From: Escherichia coli
GTDB lineage: Bacteria; Pseudomonadota; Gammaproteobacteria; Enterobacterales; Enterobacteriaceae
Reading direction: 5' to 3' (one strand)
Length of the DNA stretch: 64,000 bases
NCBI RefSeq assembly: GCF_009931435.1
Contig: NZ_CP043414.1
Part shown: positions 39,707 to 62,289 of the stretch, one piece after another
Position numbering within the stretch: position 1 is the stretch's first letter
Layout: each line of letters opens with the position of its first letter
Program-made: the position numbers and the translations under genes
The notes under the pieces: generated by a model
Told to the model about the DNA's origin: nothing
What the model saw: the letters and a program-made list of their open reading frames with translations, nothing else
Database searches by the model: none

Positions 39707-39856
39707 AACTTTGCCTCAGGCATTAGAAATAGCGCGTTATTGTACACGGATTAATCGCACTACAAAACAGGATCACAAACATCCTCCGCAAACAAGTATT
39801 GCAGAGTCCCTTTGTGATCGCTTTCACGGAGCATAAAAAGGGTTATCCAAAGGTCA

Positions 39857-39905
39857 TTGCACCAATATGGTGCTTAATGTTTCCATTGAAGCACTATATT
39901 GGTGC
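39857..39905 (+). promoter_or_regulatory. NtrC (NRI) enhancer binding sites upstream of glnA
   Basis: Palindromes TGCACCAATATGGTGC (39857-39872) and GCACTATATTGGTGCA (39890-39905), plus further TGCAC/GTGCA half-sites up to about 39950. Confidence 0.7.
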
Positions 39906-46690: not shown

Positions 46691-46758
46691 AATGGTTCGT
46701 CTTTTAGCCGTTTTATTCAGTATAGATTTGCGGCGGAATCTAACAGAAAGCAAGCAAA

Positions 46759-47001
46759 GAAAAAAGGCGACAGATTACTCTGTCGCCTTTTTTCCTGACT
46801 CATAACCCTTAACGGGTCTTACAATCCCTGCAGGCCGCCAACACACCCTGTTTTTCCATTAGCCGGAACAATCCGTGTTGATTCCATTTCCGTTTAATTA
46901 CGTCTCCGGACGTTTGTCTTCCTGACAATCCTCTGTCTTCGCCTCCTGGCGCTCCTGACCCTCATCCTGAGTCATTGTTCCTGTTAGCGTCCTCGCTCTA
47001 T
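46759..47001 (-). ncRNA. csrC: CsrC small RNA (CsrA-sequestering)
   Basis: Minus-strand sequence reads ATAGAGCGAGGACGCTAACAGGAACAATGACTCAGGATGAGGGTCAGGAGCGCCAGGAGG..., with many GGA motifs, ending in hairpin GGCGACAGAGTAATCTGTCGCC plus U-tract; matches CsrC as I remember it. Ends +/- a few nt. Confidence 0.85.
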
Positions 47002-47998: not shown

Positions 47999-48107
47999 TA
48001 AAAAACGCCCCAGTCATTACTGACTGGGGCGGCTAAAATATTCAGCCAAATCCGATTACGTGAAGTAAAAGGTCTGAAAGATAGAACATCTTACCTCTGT
48101 ACCCTAC
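47999..48107 (-). ncRNA. spf: Spot 42 small RNA
   Basis: Minus-strand sequence GTAGGGTACAGAGGTAAGATGTTCTATCTTTCAGACCTTTTACTTCACGTAATCGGATTTGGCTGAATATTTTAGCCGCCCCAGTCAGTAATGACTGGGGCGTTTTTTA recognised as Spot 42; lies just downstream of polA. Confidence 0.9.
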
Positions 48108-48254
48108 GCGACTAACTTTACTCTTTTTTGTTCAGTTCAGAAAGCATTTTTTGTAATTTTTTTTCAGTTGTTGCATAGGAATTTCTAATAGCCATCACAA
48201 AACGTGACAGCTTATGTTGCTTACTTACGAAAAAAGGGCATGTTCAGGCGAATC

Positions 48255-51041
48255 TTAGTGCGCCTGATCCCAGTTTTCGCCACTCCCCACTTCCACCAGC
48301 AGCGGCACATCCAGACGGGTACAGTTTTCCATCAGTTGATGAATCTGTTTCGCGACGGCATCGACATCATCTTTATGAACTTCAAATACCAGTTCATCGT
48401 GTACCTGCATAATCATACGCACACGCGGTTGCTCAGCTTGTAACCACGCATCAACGGCAATCATCGCTCGTTTGATAATGTCGGCGGCGGTTCCCTGCAT
48501 TGGCGCGTTAATGGCTGCACGTTCAGCCGCTGCACGACGAGCACCATTGCTGGATTTGATATCCGGCAGATACAGACGGCGTCCGTCCAGCGTTTCAACG
48601 TAGCCCTGTTCTTTCGCCTGCGCACGGGTGCGCTCCATATACTCCAGCACGCCTGGGTAGCGTTCGAAGTAAAGGTCCATGTACTTCTGCGCTTCTTTAC
48701 GTGGAATGTTCAATTGTCGCGCCAGACCGAAAGCACTCATGCCATAAATCAGACCAAAGTTGATCGCTTTCGCGCTACGACGTTGCTCGCTGGTGACGGT
48801 TTCCAGTGGCAAACCAAACACTTCTGCCGCCGTAGCCCGGTGGATATCTTTTCCTTCCGCGAATGCGGTCAGCAAGCCTTTGTCACGCGAGAGATGCGCC
48901 ATAATGCGCAGTTCAATCTGCGAGTAGTCCGCCGAGACAATCACATAATCCTCTGGCGCAATAAACGCCTGGCGGATACGACGACCTTCTTCGTTACGCA
49001 CCGGAATGTTTTGCAGGTTAGGATCGGTTGACGATAAACGTCCCGTAGCGGTTACTGCCTGGTGATAAGAGGTATGTACACGCCCGGTTTTCGGGTTGAT
49101 CATCAGCGGCAGCTTGTCGGTGTAGGTCGATTTCAGCTTCGCCAGACCACGATACTCCAGAATCACTTTTGGCAACGGATAGTCCAGCGCCAGTTCTTCC
49201 AGTACCTCTTCCGACGTTGACGGCGCACCACCCGGCGTTTTCTTCAGCGGTTTAATGCCCTGTTTTTCAAACAGAATGGTTTGTAACTGCTTGGTGGAAG
49301 AAAGGTTAAATTCTTCACCTGCAATTTCATGCGCTTTCTTTTCCAGCTCAGCCAGACGTAGAGTGAGCTCTTCAGAATGATTATGAAGCACTTTCGGATC
49401 GATCTTCACACCGTTACGTTCAATGCGTGAAAGCACCGGCACCAGCGGCATTTCGATGTTCTCGAAGACGTTCAACGGCCCTTTGTGTTTTTGCAGATCC
49501 GGCCACATTTTCAGATGCAACTGCAAGGTGACATCTGCATCTTCGGCGGCGTAACGTCCGGCCTCTTCGAGGGCAATCTGGTTAAAGGTCAGTTGATTTT
49601 TGCCTTTACCCGCAATCTCTTCAAAAGTGATGGTTTTGTGCTTCAACCAACGTTCCGCGAGGCTGTCCATATCGTGACGCCCGGCAACGCTATTGAGAAT
49701 GTAGGACTCCAGCATGGTATCAAACGCAATCCCACGCAGCTCAATGCCGTAGTTCGCCAGAATACCGCGATCGTATTTCAGGTTTTGCCCGACCTTCAGC
49801 GCCTTTTCATCTTCCAGCAGCGGTTTTAGCAACTCGAGTGCACGCTCGCGAGAGATTTGATCGGGCGCATCAAGATAATCATGAGCAACCGGAATATATG
49901 CCGCTACGCCTGGCTCGATAGCAAAAGAAAGCCCGACCAGGTTAGCAGAGATGTTATCAAGGCTGTCGGTTTCGGTATCAAATGCAAATACCGGCGATTT
50001 TTCCAGCTTCGCAATCCACGCTTTCAGTGTTTCTTCATCAAGGATGGTGACGTAGTTGTCATAAGAAATCACCGTTGCCGTCACTTCTGGCGCTTCGTCT
50101 GCAACACTGGTTTCCTGCGGCTTCGCGGCTGGTTTTGCCCCTTTGGCCTGTAACCATTTGCCCGCTTCGACATCAGCAGTCCAGCGTTTGAACTCATACT
50201 TTTTGAACAGCCCCAACAACTCTTCCGCCGCCGGTTGCTGCACTTCTAGTTGTTCACAGGTAAGCTCCAGTTCAACGTCGGTTTTAATCGTCGCCAGCTG
50301 GTAAGAGAGATAAGCCACTTCTTTGTTTTGCTCGAGCTTCGCCGCCATTGTTTTCGCGCCACGGAAGCTCAACCCAGCAATTTTTTCTGGCTCGGCATAC
50401 AGCGTATCCAGTCCGCCAAGACCTTGTAGCAATGCTTGCGCGGTTTTTTCACCGACGCCCGGTACGCCAGGGATGTTATCAGAGGAGTCACCCATCAGCG
50501 CCAGGAAGTCGATGATCAGTTCTGGCGGCACGCCGTACTTATTCACCACCTCTTCCGGTCCGAGGATGGTATTCGTCATGGTATTGATAAGCGTAATATT
50601 TGGCGTCACCAGCTGCGCCATATCTTTATCGCCTGTGCTTATCAGCACCGGACGCCCGGCTTTTTCGGCTTCGCGCGCCAGAGTACCGATAACGTCGTCC
50701 GCTTCTACGCCAGAAACCGCCAGCAGCGGCAGTCCCATCGCTTTAACCATCGCGTGCAGAGGTTCGATTTGTGCTCGCAGATCGTCCGGCATTGGCGGAC
50801 GATGTGATTTGTAATGTTCAAACAGTTCATCACGAAAGGTTTTTCCCTTGGCGTCAAAGACCACCGCTGCATGCGTCGGTTTATATTGCATGATTAGACT
50901 GCGCAGCATGTTGAGGACACCATACATCGCACCGGTCGGCTCGCCTGCGCTGTTAGTCAGCGGGGGAAACGCGTGATAGGCGCGATAAAGATAAGATGAA
51001 CCATCTACAAGGATAAGTGGATTTTGGGGGATCTGAACCAT
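48255..51041 (-). CDS. polA: DNA polymerase I
   Basis: 928 aa [44 protein letters not shown]... recognised as PolA. Confidence 0.97.
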
Positions 51042-51154
51042 AATGTCCGTGCCTGTTTATCAGATTATGGGTAAAGGATGCCACAGACAGGATGAAAACA
51101 TGAGTTTTTCACCGCTTTTCGTGAAAATCTTTTGTAGATCTTCTGGATCGCTCG

Positions 51155-51163
51155 CAAATCGTC
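51155..51163. promoter_or_regulatory. DnaA box in the polA upstream region
   Basis: TGTGGATAA (reverse complement TTATCCACA, perfect DnaA-box consensus) about 115 nt upstream of the polA start; a second near-consensus box TGTGGATAG at 51306-51314. Confidence 0.5.
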
Positions 51164-51404
51164 ATGTGGATAACTTTGTGCATAAATTATTTACATCGCT
51201 TTTAATTTATTATCATGCTTTTTACAGCATGATGTTTGTCTTTGCTTTTCATACAGTTAAATATAAAGCCATCCCTAATAATTGTGATAATGGGATTTTT
51301 TCTAATGTGGATAGATATGAATTATTTTTCTCCTTAAGGATCATCCGTTATTTGGGGCGTTTTCTGCTAAAATCGGCGCCTTGCGCTTCTTTAGCGCACT
51401 GTCT

Positions 51405-52337
51405 ATGGCTAACCTTTTGAATAAATTCATTATGACGAGAATACTCGCTGCGATAACCCTTTTGCTGAGTATCGTATTGACCATTTTGGTCACTATTTTT
51501 TGCTCCGTCCCGATCATCATTGCCGGGATTGTAAAACTATTGCTACCTGTGCCAGTCATTTGGCGAAAGGTTTCGCGTTTTTGTGATTTTATGATGTATT
51601 GCTGGTGTGAAAGTCTGGCGGTATTACTGCATCTGAACCCACACCTGCAATGGGAAGTTCACGGGCTGGAAGGGTTAAGTAAGAAGAACTGGTATCTGCT
51701 TATTTGTAACCACCGTAGTTGGGCAGATATTGTCGTACTGTGCGTGCTGTTTCGTAAGCACATTCCGATGAATAAATATTTCCTCAAGCAGCAGCTTGCC
51801 TGGGTGCCATTTCTTGGCCTGGCATGCTGGGCGCTGGATATGCCGTTTATGAAGCGTTATTCCCGCGCTTATTTATTACGTCATCCGGAGAGACGTGGTA
51901 AAGATGTTGAAACCACACGGCGTTCTTGTGAAAAGTTTCGCCTGCACCCCACCACCATTGTCAATTTCGTTGAAGGCTCCCGTTTCACGCAAGAAAAACA
52001 TCAGCAAACCCACTCCACTTTTCAAAACTTGTTGCCACCAAAGGCGGCAGGCATTGCGATGGCGCTAAATGTACTGGGTAAACAATTCGATAAACTGCTT
52101 AATGTTACGCTGTGTTATCCCGACAATAACCGTCAGCCGTTCTTCGATATGTTAAGCGGTAAACTGACGCGAATTGTCGTACATGTGGATTTACAGCCTA
52201 TTGCCGATGAGTTACATGGCGACTACATCAATGACAAAAGCTTTAAGCGCCATTTTCAGCAATGGCTGAACTCACTGTGGCAGGAAAAAGACCGACTTCT
52301 GACGTCGTTGATGTCATCACAGCGTCAGAATAAGTAA
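51405..52337 (+). CDS. yihG: Acyltransferase-family inner membrane protein YihG
   Basis: Start at [14 protein letters not shown] (310 aa); acyltransferase HxxxxD-like motif NHRSWADI. Confidence 0.9.
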
Positions 52338-57183: not shown

Positions 57184-57303
57184 ATGCCTGGCAGTTCCCT
57201 ACTCTCGCATGGGGAGACCCCACACTACCATCGGCGCTACGGCGTTTCACTTCTGAGTTCGGCATGGGGTCAGGTGGGACCACCGCGCTAAGGCCGCCAG
57301 GCA
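57184..57303 (-). rRNA. rrfA: 5S ribosomal RNA
   Basis: 120 nt matching E. coli 5S rRNA on the minus strand (TGCCTGGCGGCC...GGAACTGCCAGGCAT), with one apparent difference near the 5' end (CTTAGCG rather than the CGTAGCG I recall). Confidence 0.95.
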
Positions 57304-57396
57304 AATTCTGTTTCATCAGACCGCTTCTGCGTTCTGATTTAATCTGTATCAGGCTGAAAATCTTCTCTCAATCCGCCAAAACATCTTCGGCGTTGT

Positions 57397-60301
<2,905 letters not shown>

Positions 60302-60484
60302 TCACAACCCGAAGATGTTTCTTGCGATTCATCATCGTGTTGCGAAAATTTGAGAGACTCACGAACAACTTTCGTTGTTCAGTGTTTCAATTTTCAGCTT
60401 GATCCAGATTTTTAAAGAGCAAAACTTCGCAGTGAACCTTTGCAGGTACACTCTGAAGTATTTTTTATTTAATCACTACAGAGA

Positions 60485-60560
60485 TGGTGGAGCTATGCGG
60501 GATCGAACCGCAGACCTCCTGCGTGCAAAGCAGGCGCTCTCCCAGCTGAGCTATAGCCCC
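60485..60560 (-). tRNA. alaT: tRNA-Ala (UGC), 16S-23S spacer
   Basis: Reverse complement is GGGGCTATAGCTCAGCTGGGAGAGCGCCTGCTTTGCACGCAGGAGGTCTGCGGTTCGATCCCGCATAGCTCCACCA. Confidence 0.97.
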
Positions 60561-60602
60561 ATAACATGTAGTTAAAACCTCTTCAAATTTGCGGTGCAAA
60601 TT

Positions 60603-60679
<77 letters not shown>

Positions 60680-60747
60680 GTAGAGGTTTTACTGCTCATT
60701 TTCATCAGACAATCTGTGTGAGCACTGCAAAGTACGCTTCTTTAAGG

Positions 60748-62289
<1,542 letters not shown>

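What the first reader, a model, noticed from the sequence alone, without database searches (positions are those of the whole stretch)
51155..51314. DnaA boxes in the polA-yihG divergent intergenic region
A perfect DnaA box (TTATCCACA on the minus strand, 51155-51163) and a one-mismatch box (51306-51314) lie in the AT-rich ~360 bp region upstream of polA, consistent with reported DnaA-dependent regulation of polA.
Basis: partly seen in the sequence, partly recalled or inferred. Interest (0 to 1): 0.3.

Follow-up and report, generated by a model that had tools for sequence, protein, structure and literature searches.

The report
Conserved DnaA site upstream of polA

Summary
The boxes are real but one coordinate is wrong. 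The perfect TTATCCACA lies at 51165-51173 (-), not 51155-51163. CTATCCACA at 51306-51314 (-) is correct. Together these two are the 'double DnaA box' tTTATGCACAaagTTATCCACAt published for E. coli K-12. The strong DnaA ChIP-seq summit upstream of polA sits on it (123x over control). Three same-strand boxes never arose in 20,000 shuffles of this AT-rich spacer. What I could not find in the papers I could reach is the wider architecture. In 66 of 68 assessable loci from Enterobacterales, Vibrionaceae and Alteromonadales-like genera, both boxes are kept on the polA strand 141-148 bp apart, whatever gene lies upstream. The same holds in metagenomic lineages whose PolA is only 49-60% identical. An IHF-type site lies between the boxes, and its inferred bend centre stays about 64 bp from the distal box even where the site is inverted. 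A conserved TRTGGCATNCT motif (probable extended -10) lies about 40 nt before the ATG. Pasteurellaceae lack all of this and carry TATAAT there instead. A looped DnaA-IHF complex is inferred, not shown.

The parts
51165..51173 (-). Proximal DnaA box, perfect consensus TTATCCACA. It is the strong member of the double box.
   Evidence: It is TTATCCACA in 64 of 66 related loci that carry the module. It lies under the K-12 ChIP-seq summit.
51177..51185 (-). Partner DnaA box TTATGCACA (fits TTWTNCACA), separated by the 3-bp spacer AAG from the proximal box. The two form a 'double DnaA box'.
   Evidence: It is listed verbatim in PMC11317965 Table 1. In relatives the position is kept as nnnnnCACA or AACA with 1-4 mismatches.
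51306..51314 (-). Distal DnaA box CTATCCACA (one mismatch, at position 1), same strand, 141 bp start-to-start upstream of the proximal box.
   Evidence: The box and its spacing are conserved: 141-143 bp in 47 of 48 Enterobacterales and 9 of 9 Vibrionaceae, and 144-148 bp in 8 of 9 Alteromonadales-like loci.
51247..51259 (+). IHF-type site. It reads TTTCATACAGTTA on the + strand, 2 mismatches from WATCAANNNNTTR, which is TAACTGTATGAAA on the polA strand. The inferred bend centre is 64.5 bp from the centres of both the distal box and the partner box.
   Evidence: At this register, 15 of 33 genera match with at most 1 mismatch, against a mean of 0.16 per other offset. IHF binding itself was not tested.
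51075..51086 (-). Conserved motif CTGTGGCATCCT (general form TRTGGCATNCT), read as an extended -10 (TRTGn) plus the weak hexamer CATCCT. The predicted start is near 51068, about 27 nt before the ATG.
   Evidence: It is present 36-55 nt before the ATG in nearly all loci with the module and in 26 of 28 metagenomic polA loci. Pasteurellaceae have TATAAT at the same place. No RNA structure was found. The transcription start is not verified.
51136..51149 (.). Two GATC (Dam) sites, 51137-51140 (within AGATCT) and 51146-51149, just downstream of the double box in polA orientation.
   Evidence: GATC is enriched about 8-fold in this 45-bp zone across genera (1.15 observed against 0.14 expected). The pair is lost in E. 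coli Z1323HEC0067 and in Citrobacter werkmanii.
51152..51157 (-). TTGCGA, a -35-like hexamer 7 nt after the proximal box. It is conserved in part of the Enterobacterales only.
   Evidence: No consistent -10 partner was found across genera. Its function is unknown.
48255..51041 (-). polA (DNA polymerase I), the gene the module travels with.

Best explanation
The spacer carries the known high-affinity DnaA site of the polA control region. DnaA binds the double box TTATGCACA-aag-TTATCCACA (51165-51185, minus strand). Binding is shown by ChIP-seq in K-12, whose sequence is identical here. According to the literature, this binding raises polA transcription in stationary phase. The rest is inferred from comparative anatomy. 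The double box is one end of a self-contained module about 150 bp long. The third, same-direction box (51306-51314) is the other end. An IHF-type bending site lies midway, with its bend centre about 64 bp from the distal box and about 64 bp from the partner box. A sharp IHF bend would fold the DNA so that DnaA on the distal box meets DnaA on the double box, stabilising a small DnaA oligomer. This complex sits at a variable distance (47-196 bp) upstream of a weak, conserved extended -10 promoter (TRTGGCATNCT, about 40 nt before the ATG) and makes polA expression depend on DnaA. GATC clusters next to the boxes suggest that Dam methylation and SeqA link occupancy to passage of the replication fork.
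For: Binding and identity:
- The 23-nt double box equals the K-12 ChIP-seq entry (summit 4046831, 123x).
- It maps to 4046822-4046842.

Not chance:
-.

Regulation of polA:
- Reviews citing Quinones 1997.

Conservation of both boxes and their spacing:
- Enterobacterales: 48 of 50 loci.
- Vibrionaceae: 9 of 9.
- Alteromonadales-like genera: 9 of 9.
- Pasteurellaceae: 0 of 11.
- The rest of the spacer has near-zero information content.

The module follows polA:
- The upstream neighbour is yihG, dsbA, an elbB-like gene or others in different lineages.
- 28 metagenomic loci found by the box pattern alone have polA 88-190 nt downstream, with PolA identity down to 49%.

IHF-type site:
- Its position is strongly enriched.
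- The site is inverted in Alteromonadales-like and distant lineages, yet the inferred bend centre stays 62.5-65.5 bp from the distal box.

Promoter:
- The motif is invariant at a fixed distance from the ATG.
- Lineages without the module have a perfect TATAAT at the same place.
- There is no conserved RNA fold.

GATC enrichment:
-.
Against: - No transcription-start data for polA could be reached, so the promoter assignment is a sequence argument. The simple promoter scan did not flag it.
- The E. coli copy of the IHF-type site has 2 mismatches, and no IHF ChIP data for this spacer were accessible. The oriC IBS1 also has 2 mismatches.
- ChIP-seq reports a single summit and cannot say whether the distal box is occupied.
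- Single boxes are often unbound in vivo.
- The distance from the box to the promoter motif varies and shows no clean 10.5-bp phasing, so DnaA is not a classical promoter-proximal activator here.
- Most of the DnaA regulon, polA not singled out, kept wild-type protein levels when datA, DARS1 and DARS2 were deleted.
- The GATC pair is not universal.
- The bend-centre offset rests on my recollection of the IHF-H' structure.
Confidence: 0.75

Rival explanations
1. The module is mainly a chromosomal DnaA-control locus, and polA regulation is secondary. It would either titrate DnaA near the origin or act like datA or DARS to change the nucleotide state of DnaA.
For: - ChIP signal (123x) is in the range of oriC (174-218x), datA (213x) and DARS2 (78-213x), and far above classical promoter sites (dnaA 5x, nrdA 14x, mioC 25x).
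- The parts list matches datA: one IHF site plus same-direction boxes including a 3-bp-spaced pair.
- The internal geometry is rigid, but the distance to the promoter is loose.
- polA lies in the origin-proximal zone of high box density, and the authors of that study suggest promoter boxes may also titrate DnaA.
- The window itself has 25 boxes with at most one mismatch against 13 expected.
Against: - The module stays glued to polA while neighbours change. A pure DnaA-control element would not need that.
- Loss of the module in Pasteurellaceae coincides with a consensus -10 at polA, which points to a link with polA transcription.
- No activity assay exists.
- A conserved DARS-type oppositely oriented box is absent.
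Confidence: 0.2
2. Only the double box matters, as a simple activator site. The distal box and the IHF-like motif would be conserved for unrelated reasons, such as a different protein, DNA curvature, or a roadblock to read-through from upstream genes.
For: - The ChIP study shows that double boxes predict binding and that single boxes are often unbound.
- The E. coli IHF-like site is weak.
- The purH site, equally strong in ChIP, has no comparable distal box or IHF arrangement.
Against: - The distal 9-mer is a DnaA box in every lineage, with TCCACA invariant and the same strand.
- Its spacing to the proximal box is fixed to within 1 bp across two orders while the intervening sequence is unconstrained.
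- The bend centre is preserved despite inversion of the IHF-type site.
Confidence: 0.15
3. The distal box belongs to the divergent yihG promoter and regulates yihG rather than polA.
For: It lies 91 bp before the yihG ATG in this window.
Against: The same box at the same spacing is present where the upstream neighbour is co-directional dsbA, a divergent elbB-like gene, or other genes, and yihG is absent.
Confidence: 0.05
4. The boxes are chance matches in AT-rich DNA.
For: One perfect box per 64 kb is within expectation.
Against: - Shuffles of the spacer almost never give the observed set.
- Published ChIP occupancy.
- Deep conservation.
Confidence: 0.01

Closest known systems
The polA DnaA site of E. 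coli K-12 (Quinones et al. 1997; 'double DnaA box' at ChIP-seq summit 4046831, Stringer, Fitzgerald and Wade 2024, PMC11317965)
   Same: It is the same locus. The 23-nt double box is identical, lies at the same distance from the polA ATG, and the whole promoter-proximal 220 bp is identical.
   Different: In the papers I could read there is no mention of the distal box, the IHF-type site, the fixed 141-148 bp spacing, the TRTGGCATNCT motif or conservation outside E. coli.
datA (DnaA-ATP hydrolysis locus; one IHF site plus DnaA boxes 2, 3, 7 essential and 4 stimulatory; PMC10950094)
   Same: Both have one IHF-type site flanked by same-direction DnaA boxes, including a pair with a 3-bp spacer (TTGTAAACA-gag-TTATCCACA in datA). 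The IHF site has the same orientation relative to the boxes as in Enterobacterales polA. ChIP occupancy is very high. Total span is about 150-180 bp.
   Different: In datA the pair lies on the other side of the IHF site, and the arms are about 20 bp longer. datA is not tied to a promoter of a replication gene. DnaA-ATP hydrolysis activity is untested for polA. I could not verify which K-12 coordinate is 'box 7'.
oriC left half (R1 - IBS1 - R5M and following sites)
   Same: Both have a high-affinity box, an IHF site and further same-direction boxes, with GATC clustering. The IHF site tolerates 2 mismatches to the consensus.
   Different: No AT-rich 13-mer unwinding element was seen. The arms are 21.5 and 33.5 bp in oriC against about 64 and 65 bp here. 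Only three boxes are present.
DARS1 / DARS2 (DnaA-reactivating sequences)
   Same: They contain a double box of the same form. DARS2 also uses IHF.
   Different: From my own knowledge, the DARS core needs a box in the opposite orientation next to the pair. E. coli has only a 2-mismatch candidate (TTATTTACA), and that position is not conserved in relatives.
Other DnaA-bound promoter regions with double boxes (nrdA, mioC, purH, nrdD)
   Same: They have the same two-box unit with a 2-3 bp spacer upstream of a gene of DNA or nucleotide metabolism.
   Different: The purH region shows no IHF-type site, and its only distal candidate is a 2-mismatch box. The other regions were not examined.

Membership tests
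High-affinity DnaA box (TTATCCACA / TTWTNCACA) | 9-mer matching the consensus | tested here: met
   51165-51173 is perfect. 51177-51185 fits TTWTNCACA. 51306-51314 (CTATCCACA) misses position 1 and does not fit TTWTNCACA, but the same 9-mer is listed as a DARS2 box in PMC11317965.
High-affinity DnaA box (TTATCCACA / TTWTNCACA) | Occupied by DnaA in vivo | tested here: met
   What I tested is sequence identity to the published bound site. The K-12 double box at 4046822-4046842 sits under the ChIP-seq summit 4046831, and the window is identical there. Occupancy of the distal box is unresolved.
Double DnaA box (Stringer et al. 2024) | Two boxes, same orientation, 2 or 3 bp apart, one close to consensus | tested here: met
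   TTATGCACA-AAG-TTATCCACA. The 3-bp spacing is kept in all 66 related loci.
DnaA-regulated promoter | DnaA-dependent change in transcription of the downstream gene | not testable with these tools
   Known only from the literature: activation in stationary phase, Quinones 1997 as cited. The ChIP study did not test regulation of polA beyond tag neutrality.
DnaA-regulated promoter | Box positioned relative to a mapped transcription start | tested here: inconclusive
   No start-site data were reachable. The predicted extended -10 at 51075-51086 puts the double box about 100-115 bp upstream. The distance varies between 47 and 196 bp among genera without clear phasing.
datA-type DnaA-IHF locus | One IHF-binding sequence flanked by DnaA boxes | tested here: inconclusive
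   The motif is present at a fixed register. It is perfect in many genera but has 2 mismatches in this window.
datA-type DnaA-IHF locus | IHF binding in vivo or in vitro | not testable with these tools
   The supplements of the IHF genome-wide studies that were held did not mention polA or yihG, or were not held at all.
datA-type DnaA-IHF locus | IHF-dependent stimulation of DnaA-ATP hydrolysis | not testable with these tools
   Needs a biochemical assay.
DARS | Core of three boxes with box I oriented opposite to boxes II and III (my own knowledge of Fujimitsu et al. 2009) | tested here: not met
   There is only a 2-mismatch inverted 9-mer next to the partner box in E. coli. That position carries no conservation in 33 genera.
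Replication origin | AT-rich unwinding element with 13-mer repeats next to the box cluster | not tested
   I ran no scan for 13-mer repeats or an unwinding element. I only inspected the alignments by eye, and beyond the boxes they show no conserved block.

The most novel reading that the evidence does not exclude
The region upstream of polA is a fourth chromosomal DnaA-IHF nucleoprotein locus, alongside oriC, datA and DARS2. It would be an ancient hairpin of about 150 bp in which an IHF bend brings a lone DnaA box against a double box. It is kept with near base-pair precision across several gammaproteobacterial orders. It would either feed back on the initiator (titration or nucleotide state) or couple DNA polymerase I supply to the DnaA cycle through a mechanism other than ordinary promoter-proximal activation.
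Probability: 0.25. Interest if true: 0.65.

Novelty: already known. Interest (0 to 1): 0.35.

Why it matters
The DnaA site at polA is textbook-level knowledge, so the finding as written adds nothing new. The comparative result is worth a specialist's attention for three reasons.

- The polA site is one of the most strongly occupied DnaA sites on the E. coli chromosome.
- Its activation mechanism is described as poorly understood.
- Its rigid box / IHF-type site / double-box geometry has survived while everything around it, including the neighbouring gene, has changed.

This yields a concrete structural hypothesis, a bent three-DnaA complex, that can be tested with a handful of point and spacing mutants. 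It also bears on whether promoter-associated DnaA boxes near the origin contribute to initiator titration.

Tried and rejected
- **Rfam:** a scan of the spacer gave only a chance SprX hit (16 bits against a gathering score of 80). There is no known RNA here.
- **RNA-level reading of TRTGGCATNCT:** RNAalifold on 24 genera gave zero pairs.
- **Sigma-54, sigma-32 and sigma-E readings of the motif:** I rejected these by inspection of spacing and consensus. This is my own reasoning, not a tool result.
- **A conserved sigma-70 promoter directly after the double box:** no consistent -35/-10 pair across genera.
- **Helical phasing between the box and the promoter motif:** no specific peak near 10.5 bp.
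- **DARS-like inverted box:** found in E. coli only.
- **The same architecture at purH:** not found.
- **The 8-9 bp inverted repeat at 51211-51234:** not conserved even in a divergent E. coli or in Citrobacter.
- **Transcription-start and IHF ChIP look-ups:** these failed or were empty.
- **Non-polA matches of the metagenome pattern:** the few I inspected were other DnaA-box clusters (rnpA-dnaA, murC-dnaD-like and uvrB-adjacent regions in other phyla) or contexts I could not identify.

Full report
**Observation**

polA occupies 48255-51041 on the minus strand. yihG starts at the ATG at 51405 on the plus strand, as annotated in an E. coli genome identical over the spacer. The spacer is 363 bp with 36% G+C, against 50% for the window.

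- The only perfect DnaA box in the window is at 51165-51173 (-).
- CTATCCACA at 51306-51314 (-) is as stated.
- A third box, TTATGCACA at 51177-51185 (-), lies 3 bp upstream of the perfect one in polA orientation.

A single perfect box in 64 kb is unremarkable (expected 0.41). The set is not. In 20,000 dinucleotide shuffles of the spacer, a perfect box arose 68 times, three boxes once, three on one strand never, and a 2-3 bp spaced pair never.

**What it is**

The window is E. coli. 5,425 of 5,426 complete genomes match the spacer, but only 22 at 99% identity or more. It differs from K-12 at 7 spacer positions. None is in a box, and the stretch from the inverted repeat to the ATG is identical.

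The K-12 DnaA ChIP-seq study lists 16 bound regions. One is 'polA', summit 4046831, 123x over control, with the double box tTTATGCACAaagTTATCCACAt. In NC_000913.3 that string spans 4046822-4046842, centred on the summit, with the polA ATG at 4046966. The same paper and a review cite Quinones et al. 1997 for DnaA activation of polA, in stationary phase.

**Conservation**

A scan of one genome per species with the first 300 residues of PolA gave 80 loci. In polA orientation, the results by group were:

| Group | Loci with both boxes | Start-to-start spacing (bp) |
|---|---|---|
| Enterobacterales | 48 of 50 | 141 (14 loci), 142 (30), 143 (3), 132 (1) |
| Vibrionaceae (assessable) | 9 of 9 | 142 in all |
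| Alteromonadales-like genera | 9 of 9 | 144-148 (8 loci), 129 (1) |
| Pasteurellaceae | 0 of 11 | no boxes |

- The proximal box is TTATCCACA in 64 of the 66 loci that carry both boxes.
- The distal box is (A/C)TATCCACA in Enterobacterales and TT(T/G)TCCACA elsewhere.
- Two reduced enterobacterial genomes also lack the boxes.
- Outside the boxes the sequence between them is essentially unconstrained.

The upstream neighbour differs between lineages: divergent yihG, co-directional dsbA, a divergent elbB-like gene, and others. The module therefore belongs to polA, not to the polA-yihG pair.

A metagenome scan with the bare pattern TCCACA-N(124-134)-ACA-NNN-TTATCCACA returned 120 loci. In 28 of them polA starts on the same strand, in 26 of them 88-184 nt after the box and in two much further away (408 and 1140 nt). 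Seventeen of the 28 have a PolA only 49-61% identical to the window's, more distant than any named genus in the first set. The few other matches I inspected were unrelated DnaA-box clusters or contexts I could not identify.

**Further conserved parts**

1. *IHF-type site.* A 13-mer lies between the boxes. On the polA strand YAANNNNTTGATW matches with at most 1 mismatch at offset -87/-86 from the proximal box in 15 of 33 genera, against a mean of 0.16 per other offset or orientation. It is perfect in many genera. The copy in this window (51247-51259) has 2 mismatches, as does the functional IBS1 of oriC. In Alteromonadales-like genera and the distant metagenomic lineages the 13-mer is inverted. 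Before running the analysis I placed the bend centre about 1.5 bp outside the W end, from my recollection of the IHF-H' co-crystal DNA. On that basis, both orientation classes put the bend centre 62.5-65.5 bp from the centre of the distal box. It lies 64.5-70.5 bp from the centre of the partner box. An asymmetric motif that flips about a fixed point argues that the bend is the selected feature.
2. *Promoter-like motif.* TRTGGCATNCT lies 36-55 nt before the ATG in nearly all loci with the module and in 26 of 28 metagenomic loci. It reads as a TRTGn extended -10 with a weak hexamer CATNCT. Nine of 11 Pasteurellaceae loci have a perfect TATAAT at -38 to -45 instead. No conserved RNA fold involves the motif.
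3. *GATC clusters.* GATC is enriched 6-8 fold next to the boxes. The cluster lies after the proximal box in Enterobacterales and after the distal box in Vibrionaceae. It is not universal.

**Mechanism**

*Shown:* DnaA occupies the double box in K-12.

*From the literature:* DnaA stimulates polA in stationary phase.

*Inferred:* IHF bends the DNA midway. The distal box then lies against the double box and a small DnaA oligomer is stabilised. This unit acts at a distance on a deliberately weak promoter, and Dam/SeqA may time it.

*Against a classical activator:* the box-to-promoter distance ranges from 47 to 196 bp without clear helical phasing.

*Against strong dose-sensitivity:* most of the DnaA regulon kept normal protein levels in datA/DARS deletion strains.

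**Comparison with known systems**

- **datA.** The parts list (one IHF site, same-direction boxes including a 3-bp-spaced pair, very high occupancy) is closest to datA. The pair lies on the other side of the IHF site, the arms are shorter, and no hydrolysis activity is known here.
- **oriC left half.** It resembles this in ingredients but not in distances. I ran no scan for an unwinding element.
- **DARS.** It fails the requirement for a conserved opposite-orientation box.
- **purH.** This site is equally strong in ChIP but lacks the arrangement.

**Novelty and score**

The DnaA site at polA is already known. The rigidly spaced box / IHF-type site / double-box module, its depth of conservation, and the promoter swap in Pasteurellaceae did not appear in any paper I could search or read.

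Interest is modest for the finding as given and moderate for the architectural hypothesis.

Noticed in passing
window 51211-51234: There is a near-perfect inverted repeat TATCATGCT-ttttac-AGCATGATg between the IHF-type site and the double box. The scan flagged it as terminator-like on the + strand. It is present in K-12 but degraded in E. coli Z1323HEC0067 and Citrobacter, so it is not part of the conserved module.
   Followed up: partly
window 51382-51398: A hairpin TGCGCT-tcttt-AGCGCA lies 6 nt before the yihG ATG. The stem is kept through compensatory changes in E. albertii (T:A to G:C), E. coli SCPM-O-B-8794 (C:G to T:A) and E. coli Z1323HEC0067. It may be a structured yihG leader or a protein site.
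   Followed up: partly
whole window: There are 25 DnaA-box 9-mers with at most one mismatch against 13.0 expected, and 0 of 100 shuffles reach 25. This fits the reported origin-proximal enrichment of DnaA boxes in E. coli. Two of them (62466, 62823) lie just upstream of the 16S gene of the rRNA operon at 57186-62289.
   Followed up: no
window 51260-51288 (-): The only promoter-like hit of the simple scan (ATCACA-17-TATATT, polA direction) is created by two substitutions specific to this lineage relative to K-12 (ATCTCA, TATTTT). It is probably chance: 1.9 hits are expected per shuffle.
   Followed up: partly
window 51042-51404 versus E. coli genomes: Only 22 of 5,425 complete E. coli genomes are at least 99% identical over the spacer, and most are 95-99% identical. 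The first 300 PolA residues are 100% identical to those of the E. albertii type strain. The window therefore comes from an uncommon E. coli lineage.
   Followed up: no
L051-L080 (Pasteurellaceae loci), 38-45 nt before polA ATG: All 11 Pasteurellaceae loci lack both DnaA boxes. Nine carry a perfect TATAAT where other orders have CATNCT. This is an apparent switch from a regulated to a consensus promoter.
   Followed up: partly
L128 (metagenome), module 1.1 kb upstream of polA: The box module (spacing 143, perfect IHF-type site) is separated from polA by about 1.1 kb, while TGTGGCATTCT still sits 50 nt before the ATG. Something seems to have been inserted between the module and the promoter.
   Followed up: no
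L168, L148, L131 (metagenome): These loci carry arrays of perfect TTATCCACA boxes repeating with periods of 36 to 144 bp. They are probably origins or iteron-like regions of unidentified replicons.
   Followed up: no
L050, L054, L060, L069, L079, L049 (Vibrionaceae, Plesiomonas), first 50 bp after the distal box: There are three to five GATC sites packed directly after the distal box, a density reminiscent of oriC. In Enterobacterales the GATC pair instead follows the proximal box.
   Followed up: partly
window 46748-47001, 47999-48117, 39788-39895, 10551-10609: CsrC, Spot 42 (directly downstream of polA), an ES222 sRNA and a SECIS element were recovered at Rfam gathering scores. This is the ordinary K-12-like context.
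   Followed up: no
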